This document shows, in pieces, positions 1 to 36,561 of a stretch of DNA of 64,000 nt. Below the pieces are notes generated by a model. It ran no database searches, was not told where the DNA came from, and saw nothing but the letters and a program-made list of their open reading frames with translations. Both the position numbers and the translations under genes were made by a program. Each line of letters starts with the position of its first letter. Position 1 is the first letter of the stretch. The stretch is from an uncultured Methanomicrobiales archaeon (lineage in GTDB: Archaea > Halobacteriota > Methanomicrobia > Methanomicrobiales > JACTUA01), in contig CAVQHA010000003.1 in assembly GCA_963712215.1 (NCBI GenBank), forward strand, positions 62,675 to 126,674. Direction: 5' to 3'.

Positions 1-816
1 CGGCTACCTGGCGGTGGGACTTTGGTGACGGAAGCATTGCTGCAAACCAGAACCCATCCCATACTTACGCAAAGGCAGGGACCTACGGGGTCACCCTCAC
101 GGTGACGAACGCCTACGGGTCCTCGACGAAGACAAAGGCGGGCTACATCACGACCGGCATGCCGCCGACCGCCGATTTCACATCGGGAGCGAGAACAGGC
201 CCGGCTCCCCTGACGGTGGCATTCACCGACGCATCGAAAGGAAGGCCGACCTCATGGGCCTGGAATTTCGGTGACGGGAGCACCTCCACCGCCGTGAGCC
301 CTGCCCACACCTACACCAGTGCCGGGACTTTCACAGTGACACTCACGGTGACGAACGCCTACGGGTCTGACAGCGAGGTCAAGGCGGGCTTTGTTACCGC
401 CGGCGGTAAGCCCACCGCGGACTTCACCGCCAACGAGCGGCGCGGGGTCAAGCCCTTCACCGTGATGTTCACCGACCTCTCGACCGGGAACCCCACAACT
501 TGGAAATGGGACTTCGGCGACGGGACCACGTGCCACCGAGCAGAACCCGACGCACGTGTACCAGGCCGAGGGTGCATATGATGTCACCCTCACGGTATCG
601 AACAGCTACGGTTCCGACACCGAGAAGAAGACCGGAGCCAGCCCCATCGTGACAATCCCCATGGCCACCCCGACAGCAGCTGCCACGACCCAGGCAGCCC
701 AGGGGACCACAGCCGCAACGACCGCAATACCCCAGGAGACCGCGACACCCGGGTTCGAGGGCATCCTCGCCATCACCGGCCTCGCGGCGATCATCTACCT
801 GGCAAAGAGACAATAA
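1..816 (+). CDS. PKD-repeat cell-surface protein with PGF-CTERM sorting signal (5' partial, frameshift near 531)
   Basis: Repeated WxWDFGDG / VTLTVTN PKD motifs in the frame running from the window edge; shifts frame near 531 into a Thr/Ala-rich linker, TPGF, a TM helix and basic tail (PGF-CTERM). Confidence 0.9.
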
Positions 817-947
817 ATCCCTTTTTTCCGCGTATTCAGGAAAGCCCGTAGGGAACTCTTCCCGGCCGGTTATTCCTTGAAGAAGCCCCGTTCTCTCACC
901 TGTTCATCCTGCTCGATCCCCGATCAGGGGAATGCCGGAACCTGCCC

Positions 948-25875: not shown

Positions 25876-26164
25876 TCTAAGTCAACCTCCCTCAAGCAAC
25901 GGGCCATAAGTCCTTAAAATATTTAAGAATTCCTTTTTGATTGCGATAAAAACGAAGAATATTCATCATATTGTTGAATTACTTCTAAATTTAGCAAAAT
26001 GAATAAGTCTGGATAATATTGTTCATTGAAATTAAAATTCATTAGATAATTCAGTTATGTTTCAATTGAAAGATTCAATTAAACCGATTAATGGGAAATA
26101 GGAGAGGCAAACCTTTTATAAGGATAAAGAAATTATTTGAATTATGTTTATGCGGGTGTAGTCA

Positions 26165-26996
26165 ATGGCTTACTCCAAATTCGTAGTCTTTTTACTAATA
26201 TTTTTTGCATTTATAATACTCTCCGCGGGATGCATTTCGACACTAGAATATCCGGGTAATTTACAGAAAAATGAACGCTATAAATTGGTAATAGATTCCA
26301 GCGATCCCTTACATGAGGCTACATTTTATATCCCTCTGCCGGTTAAAGATAACGCCCCAGAGATTGGGACTAAACTGATAAATGTGAGTGATTTCACAAG
26401 AGGCGGGTTCTCTGTTGATATCACCCAAATGGTACCTGAGGGGATTATGGGCGATCCACACCAAACTGAATATGCTCTTCGAGGGGACAATCCATGGTAT
26501 CTACAGATTCATGCCTACCAGTGGCCGAAAGGTAGGAGCGAATGGAATGTTGAAGATGGGCTGAATGACCTCTCATCGCCGCTTCTCTTCTATAATACGC
26601 TATATCCTGTCGGCAACGAGTCCCTACTTCTACCGAAACTTGAATTCTACCCGCCAGAAAATCTGAAAATAATGAAAAAGTATTCGGATTATGCCACAAT
26701 TTATTATGTACCCCAAAAGACTGGGCAATTCACGACTATCTATGCAAATTACAGCTCGGAGGATGAGACCACGGTTATGGTTTATATTCTCGTTTGAAGG
26801 GTCAAACTATTGGCGAGATATGAATGATACGGGCGGAAACAATAATTATTTTGACGAAATTTCTGGAACTTTATATACCAATCAGGGATGGAACAAAATT
26901 CCAGGAGATTTTAGTGTTGCAGATGGACCTTATCCAGATTTATCTTCGCCAAGATGGCAGAAGCTGATTCAGAAGAGTGTCACAAGATATCAATAA
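26165..26996 (+). CDS. putative lipoprotein, frameshift near 26790
   Basis: Hydrophobic signal ending LSAGC lipobox; continues in second frame (EGSNYWRD...GPYPDLSSPRWQK). Confidence 0.7.
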
Positions 26997-26999
26997 AAC

Positions 27000-27158
27000 A
27001 TGAACAACAAAACCCTATCAATCCTAATCTTGGTTATTCTCGCCACAATTTTCCTATTCGAGGGTTGCGTTTCAACTCTGGAATATCCTCGCGAATTGCA
27101 AAAAAGCGAACGCTATCAATTACAGATTGACTCGAGTGCCCTGAAAATTGAGAACTAA
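27000..27158 (+). pseudogene. truncated paralog of the preceding lipoprotein (52 aa)
   Basis: GCVSTLEYPRELQKSERYQLQIDSS aligns with GCISTLEYPGNLQKNERYKLVIDSS, then stops. Confidence 0.75.
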
Positions 27159-27204
27159 ATAAAATGGGTAAAGTGGTGTATGGCCACTTATGCTTGAAAT
27201 GGGT

Positions 27205-28473
27205 TTATCCAGTATCTTCCTGGGTTTCATTTCCAATGAACTTCGCCTTCATAACCGATGTCTGGGCCATCAAAGCCCGTTTTGTCGGGGAATTAATCTG
27301 GATAATATACGGGGTCTGATCGACCCCTGTCCCGGAGATCGAACCATAACTCATTGAGAGCCCCATCCAGTTCTGAACTACGAGGGTGAAGGTATTGAAT
27401 CCCGGAGTCATGCCGCTTGTCAGCTCAACGACAGGATGTTGTTCAGCAAAATGTTCAGGTGCATCGAATAGGGCCCCACTTGGCTGGATAGCTATGGTGA
27501 ACCCGTCATCCGCATATACTCCGGTAAGAGAGGCGACATCCCCGGATATATACACCTGCCCGGTTCCATCCCAGTTGGCCTGGAAAATCATCGGATCTGA
27601 TTTCAGAGTGTTCCGGCGGTATTTGTTTGAATCGAAAGGTATCCCTGCCTGGACAAGTGGTGTTATTGTTGTTCCTGGAACCACCTCCTTGTTTCCAAAC
27701 GAGAACCCCGCAATCCTCGGATTAACAGCCGAGTAGGTCTTCGAATAACCGGGATTCGAACCACCGGGAACAACGACCACATAGCCATCCGGAGCAACGG
27801 GTTCTGAAATCGTACAGGTCCAGATCTTTCCCGTTGGCGGAACAGGCAGCAAGTAGGAGAACTTGAGGCCGTCGGACCCAAGTGCATTCGTTGTGAAATC
27901 CACATCGTTCACAATGGCATTGGTATCGTCAGTCACGGTTGCATGAAGTATTCGTCCTGTTTCGCAGAGTTCAGTGTCCTGCTTCGTCTTGTCGCCATTG
28001 AGATCTGTCCAGAAACAACCTTCCGCAGAGGCAACCACCTGCTTGTTCCCGAATGAATATCCAGCGACTGGAGTTGTGCCTTGCTTCGACGTATAGGTTT
28101 TTGTGTAAGAATAGGTCACGGGCTTCCCTGATCCCGATGGGACCACAACTACAAACCCGTCGGGAGGAACCTCCGAAATTATGCATGACCAGGTTCCTGC
28201 CGTGGCAGAAGGAATCGTGTACGAGAACTTGCCACTTGTGCCTGCAGTGTTTGTTGTGAAGTCTCCATCCTGGATGACCGATCCCGTATTATCTTTAACC
28301 GTCGCATGAAGTGTCCAGCCCGGCTCGCATGCTTCGGTCGCATCTTTCAGGCCATTATTGTTGACGTCTCTCCAGACGCATCCCTCTGCCGTGAGAGCTG
28401 CCACGGCTCCGACGAGTGCAAACAGCAGTAGCACTCCGAGAATGACAGGTATTCTTCGTCCAACAGTCCCCAT
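27205..28473 (-). CDS. secreted protein with two SdrD-B/Cna-B-like repeats and a C-terminal beta domain
   Basis: Signal peptide; repeats AEGCVWRDVNNNGLKD..E...FGNK and AEGCFWTDLNGDKTKQ..E...FGNK. Confidence 0.8.
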   Translation of the reverse strand: MGTVGRRIPVILGVLLLFALVGAVAALTAEGCVWRDVNNNGLKDATEACEPGWTLHATVKDNTGSVIQDGDFTTNTAGTSGKFSYTIPSATAGTWSCIISEVPPDGFVVVVPSGSGKPVTYSYTKTYTSKQGTTPVAGYSFGNKQVVASAEGCFWTDLNGDKTKQDTELCETGRILHATVTDDTNAIVNDVDFTTNALGSDGLKFSYLLPVPPTGKIWTCTISEPVAPDGYVVVVPGGSNPGYSKTYSAVNPRIAGFSFGNKEVVPGTTITPLVQAGIPFDSNKYRRNTLKSDPMIFQANWDGTGQVYISGDVASLTGVYADDGFTIAIQPSGALFDAPEHFAEQHPVVELTSGMTPGFNTFTLVVQNWMGLSMSYGSISGTGVDQTPYIIQINSPTKRALMAQTSVMKAKFIGNETQEDTG

Positions 28474-28794
28474 GAAAGTCCCTCCTTTTCCCATCTTCTC
28501 ATTGTTCAAAATGCATGCCAATCCTTACAATATGTCAAGGATAAAAAACAATTAAAACAGTCAAATTATTTAAATTGTTCTGCAGAAGGGTTTTTCTTTA
28601 ATTAGCTCAAAGATCCCATGGACTTTTACCAGAATATCTATATATTGTCAGGTTTTTTAGACCAGAACTTTTCCGAGACGATAGATTTTCTGAATTTGCA
28701 TTTCTCTTCCATTCTGGTCTGATAAGGAATGTTTCAAAATATCAGGATTTTACGTGATTTGCTCGTCGTTAAAGGGTGGGCTGCCAATACGGAT

Positions 28795-29016
28795 TCACGC
28801 CCGGACCGTCCACCGGGTGCTGATGGCATGGTTGGGGCAGAACTCGCTGCACCTGAGGCAGGTGCAGCAGAGGTGGCTCTTGTAGGGGAGGACGCTGTCC
28901 TCGTACCGGCCGAAGACCCCCATCGAGCACATGTCGATGCAGAGGCCGCAGTTCTCGCAGAGGAGAGGATCGATAGAAACCTCGACTGCAATGGTCGCGG
29001 GGGCAGAGATCTCCAA
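28795..29016 (-). CDS. 2x[4Fe-4S] ferredoxin
   Basis: CENCGLCIDMC and CCTCLRCSEFCP; true ATG may be 29023 with one extra base. Confidence 0.85.
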   Translation of the reverse strand: MEISAPATIAVEVSIDPLLCENCGLCIDMCSMGVFGRYEDSVLPYKSHLCCTCLRCSEFCPNHAISTRWTVRA

Positions 29017-29386
29017 TGTCCATCACACCTTTCCTGGATGCTGCCAGTTGCGAGAGCCGGATCGGGCGAAGCGGCAGGTAAACAGATATTTTACTCTGTT
29101 TTTCGTATAAAAACGAATCGTTTTGTCTTCCGGGGGAAGGCAGGGTCCTGTATCGTGATGTTAAGCATAATCCTTTAATAATTGCTGTACTCAAATAATT
29201 GCGGCTCTTTGTCGGATAGGTGACAATAAAAGACCTTTATACCGAATAAAACCCGATTAATGCCGATTTTTGTTTATCTATTTATTATTATATAAATTAT
29301 CTTTCGAAATGTTCTTTATTCAAGAGTGTGGAATCATGAAAATGTCACTGGTTTGCGAAGGTTAATTGCAGGGAGTGTGGTGTGGT

Positions 29387-32300
29387 GTGAAATCGATCGA
29401 TCCCAGATGGATAGCGGTAGGAGCCCTTTTCGCTCTCGTCCTTGTCCAGGGTGTGCAGGCGGAGAACTATGGGTTCGTGGCCCGTTGGGGGTCCAACGGG
29501 TCTGCCGACGGACAGTTTTACCAGGCCTATGGTCTCGGGGTGGACTCGGCCGGCAACGTGTATGTCGCGGACAATTATAACAGCCGGGTCCAGAAATTCA
29601 CGTCTGACGGGACATTTGTCTCGAAGTTCGGTTCCTATGGCACAGACGGTGGACAATTCTACTATACAAGCGATGTCGCCGTGAATTCAAGCGGGTACAT
29701 CTATGTCCTCGATGTCGGGAACTACCGTGTCGAACGGTTCACCCCTGCCGGTTCCTACAGGGGCTCCTGGGGTTCCTTCGGCACAGGCATCAGGCAGTTT
29801 TACTATCCCACAAGGATCGCCATTGATGCAGCAGGGTATGTCTATGTCACCGATGCCCAGTTGAATCGCACCCAGAAGTTCACCCCTGAAGGGGGTTTTG
29901 TAACCCAGTGGGGGTCAACAGGGACAGGGAACGGGGAGTTCGGGCAACCCATTGGAATTGCCGTGGATGCAGCCGGCTATGTGTACATAGCAGACAGCCA
30001 GAATAACCGCGTCCAGAAATTCACCTCCGGCGGAGCATACGTGGCCCAGTGGGGCACACTCGGAACGGGAAACGGACAGCTCGATCAACCTTCGGGCCTC
30101 GACGTGGATCCGGCGGGGAATGTGTTCGTCAGCGAGTACGGGAACTCGAGGGTCCAGAAGTTTACCTCCGACGGGACGTACGTGACGAAGTGGGGCTCGA
30201 ACGGGGACGGGGACATGCAGTTCCGGAACCCTCTGGATGTAGCGGCCACCTCTTCGGCAGTCTATGTCATCAACCCGGCCAGCGACGGGGTCCAGGAATT
30301 CGCTCCCGTTGAAGGGTATCTGACCGTGTCGTGCGACGTTCCGACCGGTCCCCCCGGCGCAGTCCTGACCTGCCACGGTGCGAATACCTACGGAGACAGT
30401 CCCGATTATTACACGAACATCCTTGTCACCAACAATTCACCCCCCTATTTCACCGGCAGCCTCCCTGCAAATGGGGTCAGGCCTGACGCCTTCTCCGTCA
30501 AGTCGATCTCAGGAGTGGGTTCTACCTTCGTCCGGGCACCCGTGACGGGGGGTGTATGGTCGTATTCCTGGGACACATCGTCAATCTCAGGAGGATCGGT
30601 TCTCCCGGGTTCGGAATACTACTTCATCGCCGCGAATGAGAGCCTGAACGTGACCGACGCCCGGGCCCGCCTGGGCACCTATGTGCAATACACCCTGGGG
30701 ATCCAGGCATCCGTGCATGCGGATTTCACGTTTGATGCATCGCAGGGGAAGACCGTCCGGTTTACCGATACCTCGACGGGGTTACCCACAAATGTAAACA
30801 TTGATTTCGGGGACGGGGACGTGGCGGGCGTTACGCCAGGCGGGACAGTGACGCACTCGTACAAGAGCCAGGGGGAGGAGTTCACCGCCACCCTGACGGC
30901 AGGGAACTCTCTCGGGAGCGACAGCATGACAAAAGATATCGTTGCCCTCGCCGTGACCCGGGATGATGCATACGCGGCCGTGTTACACGATCCCGCGATC
31001 CTGGGCGACGATATAACGGGAAAATCGATATCAGCAAGCCTGAACCCGCTCCCTGCCGGTTCGAGTGTCGTCGGTTGGGCCGGCACCTTCGGACTGCCCA
31101 ATACGAACGGGTGGATCATATTCGTCGACGACCACCCGAAGGCCAACTGGGAGCACCCGGTCAGGTACGTCCACGTGGATAACAACAATGTCCGGACGGT
31201 GTTCCAGGGCACCTCGCCGGCGAAGAACATCCAGATGTCCCACATCGCGGGAGAGATCCCTCCTGTAGGAGGCACGAACGATGTCGGTGGTGGGTACACC
31301 GGGGGATACACCGGCGGGGGCGGGGGGAGTGCGTCCTGTCCCACCATGGACTGCACGCATTGCTATGCGGTCCTGATCAGCGGCGGGTTCGACAGGGATA
31401 ACAACTACGTTCGTTACTGGAATGACCTGTCAGCCATGTACAGGACCCTGAGGGGGACGTACTGCTATCCGAAGGATCATATCTACGTCCTGATGTCTGA
31501 CGGGAACGACCCGGGCCTGGACCAGCGTACGGGATCGGGAGCGACCGATTACGCGGATTCCAACACGGACCTCGATGGCGATGGCATAAGCGATGTGAAT
31601 GGTGCGGCGACGAAACAGGACGTGATAGATCTGTTCGCTCACCTGAATGGCGCAAGCAACAGTCCGCCGACGCTCGGGCCCGACGACAACCTCTTTATCT
31701 TCACGACGAACCACGGGGGAGAGGATCCCAGCTCGGACAGGGTCCGGCTCTGGCTCTGGGGGTCAGGGGACCAGCAGTTCATCTGGGACAGTGACTTTAC
31801 GGCCCTCCTCGCCAATTCCCCGGCGAAGGCGATCATCATGACGATGGAGCAGTGTTACGGCGGAGGGTTCGTGGATGATTTCATCTCCTCCGGGCCCGCG
31901 GGCCAGACGAGGGTGATCGCGACCGCGGCAGACGCGGTTGAACCGTCGTACGGGAACGACTTCTCCTTCTGGTGGATCGACGGGGTGGCAGGGATCAACG
32001 GGGCAACGGGGCCCGCGAACCTCCCGCCGTCCGGCAATAACGATAAACTCATCTCCCTGCGGGAGGGCTTCGAGTACGCAAAGGCGAACGACCCGTCAGC
32101 GGCGGCCCAGCCGGAACCCCTCGAACACCCGCAGTACCAGGACGCTGTTGCGAATGCCGGTGCATCCCTCGGTCTCAGTTCCTGTGCCATGTGCCCGGCC
32201 CCCAGCCATCCGCTGCCGGACCAGGGCTCGGTCCCCGCGGATCCCAAGGGCTGGGGCTTTGCCGAGGATCTGGATAACAGCGGGATCTTTGACGTGCAGG

Positions 32301-32434
32301 ATGTCGTGCTTTACTTCAACAACATGGAGTGGATGGCAGACCCGGCGAACGAGCCGACCTGTGCGTTCGATACCAACGGGAACGGAAGGATCGATTTTGC
32401 GGATGTCGTGAACCTGTACCAGGGGGTGCAGTGA
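29387..32434 (+). CDS. secreted NHL beta-propeller + PKD + C13 (legumain-like) peptidase + C-terminal dockerin-like domain
   Basis: Signal peptide; six WGS.G...GQF..P.G.AVD repeats; PKD (VRFTDTSTG..DFGDG); LISGG..NYVRYWND, TTNHGG (His), MEQCYGGGF (Cys); duplicated Ca-loop DLDNSGIFDVQDV / DTNGNGRIDFADV. Confidence 0.88.
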   Translation: MKSIDPRWIAVGALFALVLVQGVQAENYGFVARWGSNGSADGQFYQAYGLGVDSAGNVYVADNYNSRVQKFTSDGTFVSKFGSYGTDGGQFYYTSDVAVNSSGYIYVLDVGNYRVERFTPAGSYRGSWGSFGTGIRQFYYPTRIAIDAAGYVYVTDAQLNRTQKFTPEGGFVTQWGSTGTGNGEFGQPIGIAVDAAGYVYIADSQNNRVQKFTSGGAYVAQWGTLGTGNGQLDQPSGLDVDPAGNVFVSEYGNSRVQKFTSDGTYVTKWGSNGDGDMQFRNPLDVAATSSAVYVINPASDGVQEFAPVEGYLTVSCDVPTGPPGAVLTCHGANTYGDSPDYYTNILVTNNSPPYFTGSLPANGVRPDAFSVKSISGVGSTFVRAPVTGGVWSYSWDTSSISGGSVLPGSEYYFIAANESLNVTDARARLGTYVQYTLGIQASVHADFTFDASQGKTVRFTDTSTGLPTNVNIDFGDGDVAGVTPGGTVTHSYKSQGEEFTATLTAGNSLGSDSMTKDIVALAVTRDDAYAAVLHDPAILGDDITGKSISASLNPLPAGSSVVGWAGTFGLPNTNGWIIFVDDHPKANWEHPVRYVHVDNNNVRTVFQGTSPAKNIQMSHIAGEIPPVGGTNDVGGGYTGGYTGGGGGSASCPTMDCTHCYAVLISGGFDRDNNYVRYWNDLSAMYRTLRGTYCYPKDHIYVLMSDGNDPGLDQRTGSGATDYADSNTDLDGDGISDVNGAATKQDVIDLFAHLNGASNSPPTLGPDDNLFIFTTNHGGEDPSSDRVRLWLWGSGDQQFIWDSDFTALLANSPAKAIIMTMEQCYGGGFVDDFISSGPAGQTRVIATAADAVEPSYGNDFSFWWIDGVAGINGATGPANLPPSGNNDKLISLREGFEYAKANDPSAAAQPEPLEHPQYQDAVANAGASLGLSSCAMCPAPSHPLPDQGSVPADPKGWGFAEDLDNSGIFDVQDVVLYFNNMEWMADPANEPTCAFDTNGNGRIDFADVVNLYQGVQ

Positions 32435-32447
32435 GATGGAGGGAAAT

Positions 32448-33712
32448 ATGGCGGGAACATTGAAACAGAACCATCTGTTCAAAATCCTGGCCGTCCTGCT
32501 GGTACTGGCCGCCTGGGCCTGTGCCGTTTCCGCGAATACCCTGACCCTCGGAAGCGTGAACCTCCAGAAGGTCGGTGACCAGGGTGTCATCGATCTCTAC
32601 CTGGATACCGTGCCGCCCCACGGAGTTGCTGGCTATAGCGTCACATTCACCATTACCGACACGTCTGTTGCGGACATCGTGGGCGTGAAGTATCCGAACT
32701 GGGCCGTGCAGGGTTTCAGCTCAGGGTCGCCCGGGACAAACAACGTGAATATCAAGGTGGCTGACGTGGGGGATATCATCAATACGACAACCCCTGCGCC
32801 GGTCTATCTCGGCTCGGTACAGGTTGAAGGGCTGGCGGGAGGGACAACCGATATAACCATAACCGCCGACCAGGTGGATGCCGAAGACGGCTCTCCCGTG
32901 AACCCGGCGGTGACGAAAGGTACGATCGCCGTGCAGCTCCCCCCGGGTCCATCCAGGTAACCTGCACACCGGTAACAGGGGCCCAGATCTACGTGGATGG
33001 AGTACTGCAGGAAGGGAAGACGACCGATACAACAATCGAGAATGTCCCCGCAGGGCTCCGAAAGGTGAGAGTGACCTATTCGGGGTACGCCGACTCGCTG
33101 GAGAAGGACGTAACCGTCGAGAGCGGGAAGACCGCCACCGTCTCATTTACGCTCGTGAGGACCGGAAGCATCCGGGTTCTCTCCGTGCCGCCAGGAGCGA
33201 ACGTCATTCTGGATGGGGTACCGACAAACCAGGTAACGCCGTATACCTTCTCGAGGCTGGACCCCAACGTTGTCCACCTGGTGAGGGTTGAGATGCCGGG
33301 CTATTATGGAAAAGAGACCTCGAAGAAGACCACCCCGGGGGGCACTGTCACGGTATCCTTCACCCTCTCTCCGGCGGGGAACGATGTCGCTCCCTACGGG
33401 AATATCTCGGTCGGTTCCGTACCGGATGGAGCGGAAGTCTTCATCGATGGTGCGGATGCAGATGCCGAGACCCCCGCGAACATCGAGATGGATCCAGGCC
33501 CCCACACGGTGTCGGTCGCCCTCGCCGGCTATGGAACCCCGGCCGAACAAAGCGTGACGGTCGAGACCCATAAGACGGTCACCGTGAATTTCGACCTCGA
33601 GGGGAATCCACCGGTCCCTATTCCGGAATTCCCGACAGCCGTAGTGCCCTTTGTCTTCGTGCTGGTCATATCCCTGCTGGTCTTCTTCCTGAAGAAACAG
33701 GAAGAGAAATAA
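32448..33712 (+). CDS. cohesin-like + 3 PEGA domains + PEF-CTERM anchor (frameshift near 32948)
   Basis: Signal peptide; GVAGYSVTFTITDTSVADIVGVKYPNWA...VYLGSVQVEG..GTTDITI cohesin-like sandwich; adding one base gives GSIQVTCTPVTGAQIYVDG in frame with PEGA repeats; ends PIPEFPT + TM + KK. Confidence 0.8.
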
Positions 33713-33884
33713 CTTCCCCTTTTTCCGTCGGACCTGCTCTTACATACCGTGAGCCTGACGTGCGAACGGGACCTCCTGCAATGGAACGGGGATTCGGGCC
33801 ATCGGACGTGGAACGGCGAACCTCAGGTCGGGGCAGGGATGATGGACCGTGGGAGTGACCCTCCTGTCACAGGTGAAAAAAAAG

Positions 33885-36561
33885 TCAGGGGAACCGGTCG
33901 CGCTGCTTCTTCCGCCGGAGGCGCTGCCTTCTCCTCCCGAACAAGCCGATCCCGATGGCGAGGATCACCACCCCGGCAACGAGAGGATAGCGGATCACCT
34001 GGTTCCCGGTCCAGAGTATCAGCCCTGAGAAGATGGACATCGCTGTAGGTGGCGGAGAGGGTCGCACCGTGGGCGCTGGCGCGGCCGGGACGGTGCCAGC
34101 GCCGGTTGTCGCCGGAGGTACCGACCCCTTCGCAAAGAGAGCGAAAGTGCAGAAATGGGATACGTCCGCGGTCACTGTTGCGGACTGCGGATGGTAAACC
34201 GTCGGAAGATCCAGCCAGGTGTTGGTGGATTCGTCCATGGTCCGGACGGTAAATTCCTGCCCCTCCATTCCCTGGGGAACGGTGAAGGTGAGCGTTACTG
34301 CCGGCGAGAATGTCGCACCGTCCGGCCCGAGCTCGTACGCCATTCCTGCAAAGGTGAACGCACTTCCTGAGGTGTCGGCCGGAACCGCGGACGCGGCGAG
34401 CGAGGAGATGGTGACCGAACTGAGCGGGGTACCTGCCGCGTCCTTTGCGACGATGCCTTCAGGGATCGAGAGGCTGGCCTGGTTGTCCTCCGACTGAACG
34501 GCGGTCACCTCGGTGACGACACCAGCCGCATCGACAGACAGATCGGCTGTCGTCTCGGCCCCGGCCACGGCAGGAGCTGCCGGTTCCGCTGCCGGCTGGT
34601 TCTGGGCCGCGGCAACGGCGTTCGAGGCACTGGATGACGGAGCAGAACCCGAGGAGCCCGTCTGCCCGGACCCCGAACTCGCGGCGCTCTTTGCCATGTA
34701 CACGACGAACTGGAAGATGTTGTTGTCCCCCAGAAGGGAGTTCTGGTTCCCGGGGTTTATGACGGAAAGCGTCCAGTCACCGTCAGTTGCCGATGACAGG
34801 TCGAAGGTGCAGGTAATGCCTGTTGCCGAGGTCACCACCACATTGGTAGCGTCGATCGAAGTCTGCCCGGTCTTCGTGAGCACGACGGTTGCCCCGCTGG
34901 CAAAATTGGTCCCCTCGAGGGTGACATCGACAGGGCCCGTGTTGTACCCCGAATCCGGTGAAATACTGGTCACGGTGGGTATACGGGGGAGTACGGTGAA
35001 CCCGTTCACGAGTGTGCCGGACTTGCCATCCAGGTTCGTAACCGTCACATTTCTTTTCGCGTCCGCGACTCCGGTCAGGTCAAACAGGCAGGTGATGATC
35101 TTCCCTGTGGGATCGACGGACACACTGGTCGCCGTGATATCGGAGCTGGCGGTGCTGTTGACCAGTTTCACCGTGGCGCCGGTTGCAAAGCCGGTTCCGG
35201 CAAGATTACTGATGCTGACGGAACCGGTGTTGTAACCGGTCGTCGGGGTGATACTGCTCACGGTCGGAGCGGGTGCCGTGACGGTAAACCCGTTCGTGAG
35301 GGTAGCGGTCTCGCCGCCAGGATTTATTGCGGTAATGTTCCAGAGCCCTGCAGGTGTGGCGTTCAGGTCAAAGGTACAGGTTATCTTACCCGGTGAGACG
35401 GCGGTCACATTGGTGGCATTGACATAGGCATGGCCTGCCCTCGTGAGGTTCACAGCAGTCGCGCTGACGAAACCGTTCCCCGCGAGGTTGGTGATAGAGA
35501 TGAGGCCTGTGTTCATGCCGGTCGCCGGTGTGAGAGAGGTTACGGCGAGCGGGAGGGGGACAAGGGAATACCATGCATCACGGGATGCGACGGTGTTATC
35601 GAACCCGCCTATCACCCACATCTTACTATTGAAGGGAATGGAGCCATGGCCATACCGTGCGGAGAATCCGGCATGACTCGGTTGCCCTGTTCCAGCTGAT
35701 CCCATCCACCGAATACCAGGTATCGTTGAGAGGGTTCCCTCCGTTGTCGAGCCCGCCGATCACCCAGATCTTGTTATCAAAGACCACGGAGTGTGTCCGT
35801 ACCGTTCCGGGAACGCGGCGGCAGGAGTCAGCTGGTCCCAGGTGATCCCATCGCTGGAATTCCAGACATCGTTGTACACCGTCCCGCCGTTGTCATAACC
35901 GCCGATCACCCACATCATGTTATTGAAGACAACAGAGGAGTGACCTGCCCGCCCGAGGAACCCGGCCGAGGGAGTTGCCTGGCTCCAGGTGATCCCGTCG
36001 GTGGAATTCCAGACATCGTCGAATACCGTCCCCGTTTCGTCGTCCCCGCCGATCACCCATATCTTGTTGTCGAAGGCCACGGGAGCTGTGGCTCTTCCGT
36101 TTCGCGAAGTCCGCGGCGGGCGTTGCCTCGTTCCAGGTGATCCCATCGCTGGAATTCCAGACCTCGTTCACCGCCGCGAACGTATCGTCGTACCCTCCCA
36201 TCACCCACACTTTGCTCCCAAAAACAACGGAGGAATGGCCGAACCGCGGTGCCGGCAGGGTACCGGTCTTGCCCCAGGTGGTCCCATCGGCGGAACTCCA
36301 GACATCGTCGAGATAGGTGGATGTGCCGTCGTCCCCGCCGATCACCCATATCTTCTCCCCGCTCCCGTTATCGAAGGCCACGGAGCTGTGGCCATACCGT
36401 GCAGGGAAGGTGGAGGAACCGGTCGCGTTGTACCAGTCGGCACCTGTAACCGCCTGGACTGCAGGAAAACTCCCCCAGAGGAGGAGCACCGCGGTGCAGA
36501 TGAGAACGAGAGTACATGCTCGTGGATAGAGTATGAAAACAGGAACCCGGGATGCGGACAT
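33885..36561 (-). CDS. Kelch-repeat + IPT/TIG surface protein with C-terminal TM anchor (frameshifted)
   Basis: Repeats R.GHSSV.F..K.WVIGG...DVW.S.DG.TW across three ORFs; three ITCTFDL-type TIG domains; GPDGATFSPAVTLTF..VSHFCTFALF domain; TM plus Arg-rich tail. Confidence 0.85.

What the first reader, a model, noticed from the sequence alone, without database searches (positions are those of the whole stretch)
29387..33712. Cellulosome-style cohesin-dockerin module displaying a legumain-like protease on a methanogen surface
Seen: two co-oriented secreted genes 13 bp apart. Gene 1 has six NHL repeats, a PKD domain, a clan CD His-Gly/Cys dyad (TTNHGG, His codon 31712; MEQCYGG, Cys codon 31853) and ends in a duplicated Ca-binding loop-helix (DLDNSGIFDVQDVVLYF / DTNGNGRIDFADVVNLY) with no TM anchor. 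Gene 2 (after one-base repair near 32948) has a cohesin-like sandwich, three PEGA domains and a PEF-CTERM motif. Established: cohesin-dockerin pairs assemble cellulosomes, occur in Archaeoglobus without a known function, PEF-CTERM is a predicted archaeosortase target, and C13 enzymes include asparaginyl endopeptidases/ligases and GPI transamidase. Inference: gene 2 is a one-cohesin anchoring scaffoldin that tethers the protease on a PEGA stalk, for S-layer/adhesin processing, peptide ligation or antagonism rather than polysaccharide breakdown. Other dockerin proteins in the genome could be swappable cargo.
Basis: partly seen in the sequence, partly recalled or inferred. Interest (0 to 1): 0.82.

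Follow-up and report, generated by a model that had tools for sequence, protein, structure and literature searches.

The report
Protease docked to methanogen surface anchor
A methanogen encodes, side by side, a secreted legumain-like protease that ends in a dockerin and a membrane-anchored stalk protein that starts with a cohesin, so the protease is probably clipped onto the cell surface the way cellulosome enzymes are.

Summary
Gene 1 (29387-32434, +) is a secreted protein. It has a six-blade NHL propeller, a PKD domain and a C13 (legumain-type) peptidase with conserved His783/Cys830. It ends in a duplicated Ca-loop/helix dockerin. Gene 2 (32448-33712, +) is broken in the assembly at a C6 run (32939-32944). 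Two read-derived contigs carry a seventh C, which restores one frame, and the same-genus orthologue is intact. Its N-terminal domain has no Pfam hit, but it models at pLDDT 95 and its best structural matches are all cohesins. Three PEGA domains and a PEF-CTERM-like tail (below the model's cut-off) follow.

Evidence that the two genes work together:
- A second dockerin gene followed by a cohesin gene lies on another contig of the same genome.
- Of C13 genes ending in this dockerin, 4 of 5 are followed by a cohesin-PEGA gene. Of C13 genes without it, 0 of 57 are.
- Single-chain relatives fuse C13 to PEGA and an anchor with no dockerin or cohesin.
- The complex prediction gives weak support (0.55; best control 0.02).

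Binding, protease activity and substrate are untested. Archaeal non-cellulosomal cohesin-dockerin pairs are known, so this is a new variant. The cohesin subfamily is largely missed by Pfam's Cohesin model.

The parts
29281..29299 (+). AT-rich TATA-like element about 90 nt upstream of the gene 1 start; possible archaeal promoter
   Evidence: Read from the sequence. Inference only; no promoter tool for archaea was available.
29387..32434 (+). Gene 1: secreted NHL-PKD-C13 peptidase-dockerin protein (1015 aa from GTG 29387; the ORF is open from TTG 29366)
   Evidence: P0152
29387..29461 (+). Signal-peptide-like N-terminus MKSIDPRWIAVGALFALVLVQGVQA
   Evidence: Read from the translation. No signal-peptide predictor was run.
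29483..30301 (+). Six-bladed NHL beta-propeller
   Evidence: Pfam NHL 106.8 bits, DUF5128 six-bladed propeller 37.4 bits; blade motifs
30728..30940 (+). PKD domain
   Evidence: Pfam PKD 33.2 bits, residues 455-525
30953..31270 (+). Conserved beta-sandwich domain before the peptidase, function unknown. A low-confidence Gly-rich linker follows (about 31268-31336).
   Evidence: AF2 model residues 1-105 at pLDDT 85-97; residues 106-128 below 50. The closest homologues cover the query region 100%.
31361..32167 (+). Peptidase C13 (legumain-type, clan CD) catalytic domain. His783 codon 31712-31714; Cys830 codon 31853-31855.
   Evidence: Pfam 29.4 and 31.7 bits, above the 22.8 cut-off. TTNHGG and MEQCYGG align to the legumain His and Cys motifs. 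His, Gly and Cys are invariant in 36 sequences. Best fold matches are AEPs, legumain and PIGK.
32234..32431 (+). C-terminal dockerin module with Ca loops at 32267-32302 and 32369-32404
   Evidence: Dockerin_1 18.8 bits, below the cut-off. Homologous to copies above the cut-off. Alignment A3.
32448..33712 (+). Gene 2: cohesin-PEGAx3-PEF-CTERM-like anchor protein. Two frames in the assembly; one frame with the seventh C seen in reads. An alternative start is ATG 32436.
32448..32534 (+). Signal-peptide-like N-terminus ending AVSA
   Evidence: Read from the translation
32535..32938 (+). Cohesin domain (divergent type-I-like)
   Evidence: AF2 pLDDT 95; Foldseek top matches are all cohesins; 3 of 48 family members reach Pfam Cohesin at E<=0.01
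32939..32944 (+). C6 homopolymer where the assembly loses the frame. Read-derived contigs have C7.
32948..33604 (+). Three PEGA domains (about 32948-33154, 33164-33370, 33395-33604)
   Evidence: Pfam PEGA 92.8 bits, 3 stretches; translation
33608..33709 (+). PEF-CTERM-like sorting tail: PEF motif, hydrophobic helix, KK..K
   Evidence: TIGR03024 11.5 bits, E 0.27, below the 23 cut-off. Orthologue tail 21.2 bits. Archaeosortase C-like gene in the genome.
33721..33725 (+). T5 tract 9 nt after the stop codon; possible archaeal terminator
   Evidence: Read from the sequence. Inference only.

Best explanation
This looks like a two-gene unit, probably one transcript, that builds a non-covalent surface enzyme. 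Both proteins are exported. Gene 2 is held at the membrane by its C-terminal PEF-CTERM-like tail. That tail is probably cleaved and lipid-linked by the genome's archaeosortase C-like enzyme. Gene 2 then projects a stalk of three PEGA domains ending in a single cohesin. Gene 1 carries a ligand-binding NHL propeller, a PKD domain and a legumain-type (C13, His783/Cys830) cysteine peptidase. It plugs its C-terminal Ca-dependent dockerin into that cohesin. The result is a cell-bound protease equivalent to the single-chain C13-PEGA-anchor proteins of related archaea.

Shown by computation: the folds and family memberships, the conserved catalytic residues, the intact frame in reads, the conserved gene order and the fused relatives.

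Inferred: that this dockerin binds this cohesin, that the tail is processed by archaeosortase C, that the peptidase is active, and that it acts on envelope or external proteins.
For: 1. Cohesin fold. The AF2 model from a 48-row alignment has pLDDT 95.0 and pTM 0.88. Foldseek against PDB gave 83 matches at E<=0.001, and the first 47 ranks listed are all cohesins. These include the single-cohesin anchors OlpA (3ul4_A, E 1e-9, TM 0.78) and OlpC (4dh2), CipA cohesins, and the A. fulgidus cohesin 2xdh.

2. Dockerin. There are two 12-residue Ca loops, each followed by a helix segment. Dockerin_1 scores 18.8 bits for gene 1 and 30.4 bits for the paralogue. Homologues score 23.7-26.0 bits, above the cut-off.

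3. Peptidase. Pfam C13 is above its cut-off. The His-Gly and Cys motifs align to legumains and are invariant in 36 sequences. The fold matches AEPs, legumain and PIGK first, then metacaspases and MALT1.

4. Frame. Contigs of runs X1 (no other difference) and X2 (2 C>T) both have one more C behind 32938. The same-genus orthologue is an intact 445-aa cohesin-PEGA-PEF protein directly after its C13-dockerin gene.

5. Linkage.
- The genome's only other dockerin (C1:126267-126647) is directly followed by the only other cohesin gene.
- 10 of 12 distinct cohesin domains in family-level genomes have this dockerin in the same ORF or at the end of the upstream gene.
- In 30 order-level loci, 31 of 44 cohesin ORFs do. 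Of the 30 ORFs with an N-terminal cohesin, 17 have a dockerin gene upstream, 3 have a dockerin in the same ORF and 10 have neither.
- In metagenome contigs, 4 of 5 C13 genes ending in a dockerin, with room downstream, are followed by a cohesin-PEGA gene. Of C13 genes without a dockerin, 0 of 57 are. L106 and L107 are near-identical.

6. Fusions. P0183 is PKD-C13-Ig-PEGA with an IPEF...TM tail. P0203 is NHL-C13-Ig-PEGAx2. These are the same parts in one chain, without dockerin or cohesin.

7. Complex prediction: weak support.
- Score 0.55, best of 3 controls 0.02.
- The mark was reached by 58 of 80 solved complexes and 2 of 110 mismatched pairs. At 0.60 or under it was reached by only 7 of those 80 solved complexes and by both mismatches that passed.
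- The runs agree in 100% of contacts, and the partner's pLDDT is at least 71.
- Cohesin-dockerin complexes are solved, so the pass may reflect likeness rather than binding.

8. Anchoring machinery. An archaeosortase C-like gene lies at C10:~17-900(-). It scores 39.3 bits on model positions 170-270, and its N-terminal half is in another frame. PEF-CTERM matches lie beside it.
Against: - The window's own copies fail three curated thresholds: Cohesin (no hit), Dockerin_1 (18.8 against 22.9) and PEF-CTERM (11.5 against 23). The whole-genome PEF-CTERM search did not list gene 2.
- The cohesin profile finds no cohesin in PDB by sequence.
- The dockerin profile matches EF-hand proteins better than dockerins: 1jfj at E 1.6e-7 against 5lxv_B at 1.1e-3 and 4uyq_B at 3e-3.
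- The complex score is in the weak band.
- Adjacency is not universal. 82 of 106 dockerins of this type have no cohesin beside them, and 6 more had no room to tell. 10 of 30 N-terminal cohesin genes have no dockerin beside them. 1 of 5 C13-dockerin genes (L093) has no cohesin gene within 1693 bp.
- The read evidence is two contigs at depth 3.4 and 3.5 from one study. One of them may be the source sample.
- There is no RNA or protein evidence.
- Related genomes are not independent, so the counts overstate the support.
Confidence: 0.68

Rival explanations
1. The modules are real, but the gene 1 dockerin binds a different cohesin. This could be the paralogue on contig C1, or a cohesin on another cell or species. 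Gene adjacency would then reflect co-regulation or shared descent only, and the system would serve cell-cell or cell-matrix adhesion.
For: - Most dockerins of this type have no cohesin beside them (82 of 106), so non-adjacent partners must exist.
- Relatives carry up to 8 cohesins in one protein.
- Cohesin and dockerin occur in the same chain in 55 of 150 representatives, which suggests networks.
- The literature proposes cell-cell roles in ANME archaea (PMC9012536 section 32; PMC5244752 passages).
Against: - The genome holds just two dockerins and two cohesins, each dockerin directly upstream of a cohesin.
- The split of 4 of 5 against 0 of 57 ties this dockerin class to a downstream cohesin-PEGA gene.
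- The two classes differ in step in both modules. The C13 class has ..DFAD.V.LYQ with GVAGY in the cohesin. The other class has ..DFNDVVKLFQEL with LW[FY]Y. Shared descent would give the same pattern.
Confidence: 0.14
2. The C-terminal module of gene 1 is only an EF-hand-like Ca-binding stabiliser. The N-terminal domain of gene 2 is a structural beta-sandwich that no longer binds dockerins. The two proteins would act independently.
For: - The dockerin profile scores EF-hand proteins highest in PDB.
- Pfam EF-hand models give weak hits.
- Curated Cohesin and Dockerin thresholds are not met.
- The first loop of the orthologue is degenerate (EDLYGRGSFNQDD).
Against: - The module lacks the entering helix of an EF hand. 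It is loop-helix twice, at the extreme C-terminus of a secreted multidomain protein (95 of 106 are C-terminal).
- It co-occurs with the cohesin family far beyond chance.
- Family members reach the Dockerin_1 and Cohesin models.
- The complex score is 0.55 against 0.02 for the best control (weak support).
Confidence: 0.1
3. Gene 2 is a real pseudogene in this strain, or phase-variable at the C run. The protease would then be released rather than tethered.
For: The assembly has C6 and a stop at 32958-32960. Homopolymers can be phase-variation sites (general knowledge).
Against: - Both read-derived contigs that cover the site have C7.
- The downstream frame is fully conserved, with three PEGA domains and a sorting tail.
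- The same assembly has other single-base frame breaks in conserved genes. These include an A4 run before the C1 dockerin, the archaeosortase C-like gene and the Kelch gene at 35760-36561. This points to assembly error.
Confidence: 0.05

Closest known systems
Single-cohesin anchoring proteins OlpA and OlpC of Clostridium thermocellum (type I cohesin-dockerin; PDB 3ul4, 4dh2)
   Same: They are the best structural matches of the gene 2 cohesin (E 1e-9 to 2.7e-9, TM 0.77-0.80). In both, one cohesin on a cell-bound protein takes an enzyme-borne C-terminal dockerin. Their role as SLH-anchored single-cohesin proteins is recalled, not from a call.
   Different: - 14% identity.
- The Pfam Cohesin model does not match the window's domain.
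- The anchor is a PEGA stalk plus a PEF-CTERM-like tail in an archaeon, not SLH repeats on a Gram-positive wall.
- The cargo is a C13 peptidase, not a glycoside hydrolase.
Non-cellulosomal cohesin and dockerin of Archaeoglobus fulgidus (PDB 2xdh)
   Same: An archaeal cohesin with no link to cellulose. Structural match at TM 0.76 and E 2.5e-8. Binding of archaeal pairs is reported as verified (PMC9012536 section 32, citing Bayer 1999 and Haimovitz 2008; I did not read those two papers).
   Different: 15% identity. No C13 cargo, PEGA stalk or archaeosortase-type tail is known to me there (recalled). Here the partners are encoded in tandem.
Dockerin/cohesin proteins of ANME archaea (Chadwick et al. 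2022, PMC9012536; Timmers et al. 2017, PMC5244752)
   Same: Many dockerin and cohesin proteins occur in methane-cycling archaea, with scaffoldin-like chains of up to 5 cohesins and S-layer-linked dockerins. Function is unknown and a surface assembly role is proposed (section 32 of the first paper read; passages of the second).
   Different: The cargo named there is ABC-transporter binding proteins and S-layer domains, not C13 peptidases. No rule of a dockerin gene followed by a cohesin gene is described in the text I read. Their list of proteins (S4 Data) is a supplement I could not open.
Legumain, asparaginyl endopeptidase and GPI transamidase (MEROPS C13, clan CD)
   Same: Pfam C13 is above its cut-off. 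The His-Gly and Cys motifs and the preceding Asn/Arg (NNYVRYWND) are conserved. The best fold matches are 6l4y, 6ysa, 7fqk and PIGK 7wld_K.
   Different: - 13-21% identity.
- No legumain-type C-terminal prodomain was detected.
- An N-terminal beta-sandwich and a Gly-rich linker precede the catalytic domain.
- A conserved DLDGDG loop is inserted.
- It is extracellular and multidomain.
- Specificity is untested.
Single-chain C13 surface proteins of Methanomicrobiales-like archaea (P0183, P0203, and DUF3821-C13 proteins such as P0154 and P0200)
   Same: The C13 domain is 40-56% identical. The accessory parts are the same: NHL or PKD, PEGA, and a PEF-type tail in P0183. DUF3821 forms D1-D2 of the M. 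hungatei S-layer protein (PMC11641113, passages).
   Different: In those proteins the peptidase and the PEGA/anchor part are one polypeptide. Here they are two genes bridged by dockerin and cohesin.

Membership tests
Cohesin | Nine-stranded beta-sandwich (jelly-roll) cohesin fold | tested here: met
   AF2 pLDDT 95, pTM 0.88. Foldseek PDB top matches are all cohesins, TM 0.75-0.81 for type I.
Cohesin | Pfam PF00963 gathering score (24.1 bits) | tested here: not met
   No hit for the window's domain or anywhere in the genome. 3 of 48 family members match at E<=0.01, best 1.8e-5. P0008 scores 17.3 bits.
Cohesin | Binds a dockerin | tested here: inconclusive
   Complex prediction gives weak support: 0.55 against a best control of 0.02. 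Gene-order and fusion evidence is indirect. A bench test is needed.
Dockerin type I | Duplicated segment with a 12-residue Ca loop (D-x-[DN]-x-[DNS]-G-x-x-[DN]-x-x-D) followed by a helix | tested here: met
   DLDNSGIFDVQD and DTNGNGRIDFAD, each followed by VV..(Y/F). The loop consensus is recalled.
Dockerin type I | Pfam PF00404 gathering score (22.9 bits) | tested here: not met
   18.8 bits for gene 1. The paralogue scores 30.4. Homologues P0002, P0008, P0020 and P0164 score 23.7-26.0.
Dockerin type I | Sequence closer to dockerins than to EF-hand proteins | tested here: inconclusive
   In the profile search of PDB, EF-hand CaBPs rank first (E 1.6e-7). Dockerins 5lxv_B, 2y3n_B and 4uyq_B are at 1e-3 to 3e-3.
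Peptidase C13 (legumain family, clan CD) | Pfam PF01650 gathering score (22.8 bits) | tested here: met
   29.4 bits; 31.7 bits in the genome search
Peptidase C13 (legumain family, clan CD) | Catalytic His-Gly ... Cys dyad in the conserved motifs | tested here: met
   TTNHGG aligns to SNHGG and MEQCYGG to LEACESG of VPE-gamma 5obt. H254, G255 and C301 are invariant in 36 sequences.
Peptidase C13 (legumain family, clan CD) | Caspase-haemoglobinase fold | tested here: met
   AF2 pLDDT 84. Foldseek top matches are AEP 6l4y, legumains 6ysa and 7fqk, and PIGK 7wld_K, followed by metacaspases, MALT1 and caspase-7.
Peptidase C13 (legumain family, clan CD) | Cleavage or ligation after Asn/Asp | not testable with these tools
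   An enzyme assay is needed.
PEF-CTERM / archaeosortase C substrate | TIGR03024 cut-off (23 bits) | tested here: not met
   11.5 bits, E 0.27. The orthologue tail scores 21.2 bits. PEF-CTERM is the best-scoring model in both.
PEF-CTERM / archaeosortase C substrate | Tripartite extreme C-terminus: PEF motif, hydrophobic helix, basic cluster | tested here: met
   PIPEF-PTAVVPFVFVLVISLLVFFL-KKQEEK
PEF-CTERM / archaeosortase C substrate | Archaeosortase C (TIGR03762) in the same genome | tested here: inconclusive
   39.3 bits (cut-off 100) on model positions 170-270 at C10:59-364(-). The N-terminal half lies in another frame of the same stretch, so the gene is apparently frame-broken in the assembly.
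PEGA | Pfam PF08308 gathering score | tested here: met
   92.8 bits, 3 stretches

The most novel reading that the evidence does not exclude
Methanomicrobiales may build much of their surface proteome from split genes. A cargo gene ending in a dockerin would be followed by an anchor or scaffold gene starting with its own cognate cohesin. This would give a set of orthogonal, pair-specific cohesin-dockerin addresses, up to 8-cohesin scaffoldins, that current domain models mostly miss. In this locus the cargo would be an envelope-maturing C13 enzyme that trims or transpeptidates S-layer-type proteins, much as GPI8 (a C13 enzyme) does; PorU (a C25 enzyme) is a recalled clan CD parallel for surface cargo. 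It would not be a feeding protease.
Probability: 0.2. Interest if true: 0.78.

Novelty: new variant of a known kind. Interest (0 to 1): 0.56.

Why it matters
Cohesin-dockerin pairs outside cellulosomes, and especially in archaea, have no established function. This locus gives a concrete case that can be tested at the bench. It has one enzyme, one anchor and two small modules that should bind. The same genome holds a second pair that allows a 2x2 specificity test, and single-chain relatives show what the assembled product should look like.

The locus also exposes a large cohesin subfamily. The profile search found 2003 representatives at E<=0.001. The subfamily occurs in 68 of 201 sampled genomes of the order. 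Pfam's Cohesin model mostly misses it, matching 3 of 48 members. Counts of archaeal cohesins and scaffoldins based on that model are therefore probably too low.

A cell-bound legumain-type enzyme on a methanogen would bear on how archaeal envelopes are matured or remodelled. Legumain-family enzymes are also used as peptide ligases, and new cohesin-dockerin pairs are useful for protein assembly.

Tried and rejected
- The search for related loci with the cohesin alignment A1 failed because it has no conserved 7-10 column stretch. I then scanned genome contigs with the dockerin alignment A3 instead.
- Peer et al. 2009 (PMC3035643), the survey of non-cellulosomal cohesins and dockerins, is not held. 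Whether it lists Methanomicrobiales proteins or peptidase cargo could not be checked.
- The cohesin profile A1 found no cohesin in PDB by sequence. The best E was 0.26, for unrelated proteins. The link to cohesins rests on fold and on 3 of 48 members reaching Pfam Cohesin.
- NCBIfam gave nothing for the gene 2 N-terminal piece, and only weak sub-cut-off, non-informative matches for the PEGA part.
- The whole-genome PEF-CTERM search listed three other places, not gene 2.
- Searches for prior description found none:
  - 'dockerin' + 'legumain' returned 2 papers. Judged from titles and abstract starts only, both looked unrelated.
  - 'dockerin' with Methanomicrobiales genus names listed no paper that treats the subject.
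  - 'legumain' + 'archaea' + 'prokaryotic' + 'C13' gave only a mention of putative C13 genes in Thermoprofundales MAGs.
- No RNA runs were found or asked for. Only DNA holders were searched.
- A mirror-tree or co-variation test of dockerin against the adjacent cohesin was considered and dropped. Adjacent genes share descent, so a correlation would not show binding.
- The sigma-70 promoter and terminator scan was not used, because it does not cover archaeal promoters.

Full report
OBSERVATION

The window is G000:C3:62675-126674. The genome is a 1.76-Mb, 14-contig assembly rated 65.6% complete. It carries mcrA (960 bits). Its nearest named relatives are Methanomicrobiales MAGs.

Two co-oriented ORFs fill the reported interval. 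Gene 1 is open from 29366. Pfam finds NHL (106.8 bits), PKD (33.2 bits) and Peptidase_C13 (29.4 bits against a cut-off of 22.8). Six blade motifs can be read. The His and Cys codons lie exactly at 31712 and 31853.

Gene 2 starts at ATG 32448, with GGAGG 5 nt upstream, 13 nt after the stop of gene 1. An alternative start is ATG 32436. It loses its frame in a run of six C at 32939-32944. The other frame is open from 32939 and reads PPGSIQVTCTPV..., which continues into three PEGA domains (92.8 bits) and the tail PIPEFPTAVVPFVFVLVISLLVFFLKKQEEK.

IS GENE 2 BROKEN?

Two public DNA runs of one study hold parts of the stretch. Laid on it, the one contig of each run that covers the site has an extra C behind 32938. 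X1 has no other difference and depth 3.4. X2 has two C>T changes and depth 3.5. With seven C the junction reads ..AVQLPPGSIQVT... This matches the junctions of the orthologues..GVELPSGAIQVT.. and ..VATPPGSIQVT...

The same-genus genome G005 has an intact 445-aa orthologue. The assembly also has other single-base frame breaks in conserved genes:
- an A4 run before the second dockerin
- the archaeosortase-like gene
- a Kelch gene at 35760-36561

I therefore read the break as an assembly error. The caveat is that the depth is low and X1 may be the source sample.

WHAT THE PARTS ARE

Cohesin. The N-terminal domain of gene 2 has no Pfam or NCBIfam hit, and Pfam Cohesin finds nothing in the genome. 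A protein search in 20 family-level genomes found relatives in 6 of them. A profile of 12 domains (A1) against 1.84 billion representatives found 2003 proteins at E<=0.001 and 1410 at E<=1e-10, with up to 8 copies per protein. An AF2 model from a 48-row alignment has pLDDT 95.0 and pTM 0.88. In Foldseek against PDB the first 47 ranks listed are all cohesins: type I cohesins at TM 0.75-0.81, OlpA, OlpC and CipA, and the A. fulgidus cohesin 2xdh. By sequence the link is thin. The profile finds no cohesin in PDB, and 3 of 48 family members reach Pfam Cohesin at E<=0.01. The domain is a divergent cohesin that the curated model largely misses.

Dockerin. The last 66 residues of gene 1 hold two Ca loops with the right ligand spacing, each followed by a helix segment. 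Dockerin_1 scores 18.8 bits, below the cut-off of 22.9. The paralogue on contig C1 scores 30.4, and homologues score 23.7-26.0. Against PDB the profile ranks EF-hand proteins above dockerins. Sequence alone therefore does not separate the two. The loop-helix form, the C-terminal position (95 of 106 copies) and the company it keeps argue for a dockerin.

Peptidase. TTNHGG and MEQCYGG align to the catalytic His and Cys motifs of plant legumains. H254, G255, C301, N151 and R154 of alignment A4 are invariant in 36 sequences. The AF2 model has pLDDT 84. It matches asparaginyl endopeptidases, legumains and the GPI-transamidase subunit first, then metacaspases, MALT1 and caspase-7. A confident beta-sandwich and a low-confidence Gly-rich linker precede the catalytic domain. 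This is the only C13 gene in the genome.

Anchor. PEF-CTERM is the best-scoring NCBIfam model for the tail. It is below the cut-off of 23 in both cases: 11.5 bits here and 21.2 in the orthologue. An archaeosortase C-like gene is present. Only its C-terminal half scores (39.3 bits), and its N-terminal half lies in another frame. PEF-CTERM matches lie 2-5 kb from it.

ARE THE TWO GENES PARTNERS?

1. A home-made dockerin profile finds only two dockerins among 23,389 six-frame ORFs of the genome. The second, C1:126267-126647, is directly followed by the only other cohesin gene, which is cohesin-PEGA-PKD.

2. Of 12 distinct cohesin domains in family-level genomes, 10 have this dockerin at the end of the upstream gene or in the same ORF. 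The other two are third genes in cohesin clusters of G018 and G019.

3. In 201 genomes sampled from the order, 68 have the cohesin (56 of 144 high-quality genomes; 23 of 40 genera), with up to 21 matches in one genome. In the 30 loci returned, 31 of 44 cohesin ORFs have a dockerin in the same ORF or just upstream. Among the 30 ORFs with an N-terminal cohesin, 17 have an upstream dockerin, 3 have one in the same ORF and 10 have neither; 2 of those 10 have under 300 bp of upstream sequence. These loci overlap the family-level set.

4. Starting from the peptidase, 80 metagenome loci were examined.
   - Of the C13 genes that end in this dockerin and have room downstream, 4 of 5 are followed by a cohesin-PEGA gene. 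L106 and L107 are near-identical; L093 is the exception.
   - Of the C13 genes without a dockerin, 0 of 57 are.
   - 18 loci had no room or were cut.

5. Among the best 120 C13 homologues, 20 (the closest ones) end in the dockerin and none carries a cohesin. Other homologues hold the stalk in the same chain. P0183 is PKD-C13-Ig-PEGA with an IPEF...TM tail. P0203 is NHL-C13-Ig-PEGAx2. The two-gene form is therefore a split version of a known single-chain design.

6. The complex prediction of cohesin, dockerin and 2 Ca gave weak support.
   - The score was 0.55 against a best of 3 controls of 0.02.
   - The mark was reached by 58 of 80 solved complexes and 2 of 110 mismatched pairs. At 0.60 or under it was reached by only 7 of those 80 solved complexes and by both mismatches that passed.
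   - The runs agree in 100% of contacts, and the partner's pLDDT is at least 71.
   - Like complexes are solved, so the pass may come from memory.

Evidence on the other side: most dockerins of this type have no cohesin beside them. Across 80 loci there were 106 dockerins: 82 with none, 18 with one and 6 with no room. Dockerins outnumber cohesins in several genomes. Related genomes are not independent.

MECHANISM

The best-supported mechanism has these steps:
1. Both proteins are exported.
2. Gene 2 is fixed to the membrane through its PEF-type tail and raises one cohesin on a three-PEGA stalk.
3. The dockerin of gene 1 binds that cohesin with Ca.
4. This places an NHL/PKD binding head and a legumain-type cysteine peptidase at the cell surface.

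An AT-rich TATA-like element upstream and a T5 tract after gene 2 fit one transcript (inference). The substrate is unknown. Many close relatives fuse the C13 domain to DUF3821. DUF3821 forms domains D1-D2 of the Methanospirillum hungatei S-layer protein (PMC11641113, passages read). I therefore favour action on envelope proteins over feeding. This is inference.

COMPARISON WITH WHAT IS KNOWN

Non-cellulosomal cohesins and dockerins in archaea are established for A. fulgidus and counted in ANME genomes. There, scaffoldin-like proteins with up to 5 cohesins and cargo such as ABC-transporter binding proteins are described, and the function is open (PMC9012536 section 32 read; PMC5244752 passages read). 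The closest working analogue is the single-cohesin anchor OlpA/OlpC of C. thermocellum (titles; its SLH anchoring is recalled).

What is new here:
- the cargo, a C13 peptidase
- the archaeal anchor, a PEGA stalk with a PEF-type tail
- the tandem order of a dockerin gene followed by a cohesin gene, across an order of methanogens
- a cohesin subfamily mostly invisible to Pfam's model

I found no paper on a dockerin-borne legumain or on this system in Methanomicrobiales. Peer et al. 2009 and the ANME supplement could not be read (supplements are closed).

VERDICT

I rate it a new variant of a known kind with moderate interest. Its value lies in being directly testable and in the under-counted cohesin family.

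Noticed in passing
G000 contig C1:125160-128618 (locus L009), outside the window: This is a second, paralogous pair. A TolB-like beta-propeller + PKD protein ends in a dockerin (Dockerin_1 30.4 bits). A cohesin-PEGA-PKD-repeat gene follows directly. Both genes show frame breaks in the assembly, one at an A4 run near L009:1241-1244.
   Followed up: partly
window 33885-36561, minus strand: Three overlapping ORFs in different frames (35920-36561, 35760-36146, 33885-35705) look like one secreted Kelch-repeat + IPT/TIG protein with a C-terminal membrane helix. It is split by two frame breaks. This adds to the signs of single-base assembly errors in this MAG.
   Followed up: partly
G000 contig C10:17-956, minus strand: The archaeosortase C-like gene is split into two frames, with the N-terminal half in one frame and the C-terminal half in another. 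PEF-CTERM model matches lie at C10:2669-2749 and C10:5367-5420.
   Followed up: partly
L095:1014-2711, L096:1056-2645, L106:3987-5720; proteins P0200, P0201, P0203, P0204, P0206, P0215, P0220: A conserved C-terminal domain of about 110 aa has no Pfam hit. It ends like ..IKV[IM][SN]KK.T.KE..D.V....D..IF..F. It closes both cohesin-PEGA proteins and dockerin-less C13-PEGA proteins, in place of the PEF tail. It may be another anchoring or sorting module.
   Followed up: no
G176:C10:30432-33685; G198:C4; G184:C4; proteins P0010 and P0037: Methanomicrobiales genomes encode true multi-cohesin scaffoldin-like proteins. These have 7-8 tandem cohesin domains in one protein and up to 21 matches in one genome. 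The ANME paper cites the older view that archaea lack such scaffoldins.
   Followed up: partly
window 30953-31336 and 31568-31585: A conserved beta-sandwich (motif GW.FF.DD.P.ANW.HP.RYV.VD) and a Gly-rich linker precede the C13 domain. An invariant DLDGDG loop sits inside it. The first two might be a pro-domain and an autoprocessing site, and the loop a Ca site.
   Followed up: no
window 27205-28521, minus strand: The divergent neighbour gene encodes a secreted protein with two repeats weakly like SdrD B domains (19.8 bits, below the cut-off). The 26000-29400 region has much lower G+C (0.36-0.46) than the surface-protein genes (about 0.60).
   Followed up: no
alignment A2 members: 4 of 48 short cohesin-family proteins end in a PGF-CTERM signal (archaeosortase A type). 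Single cohesins on archaeosortase-type anchors therefore recur with different sorting signals.
   Followed up: no
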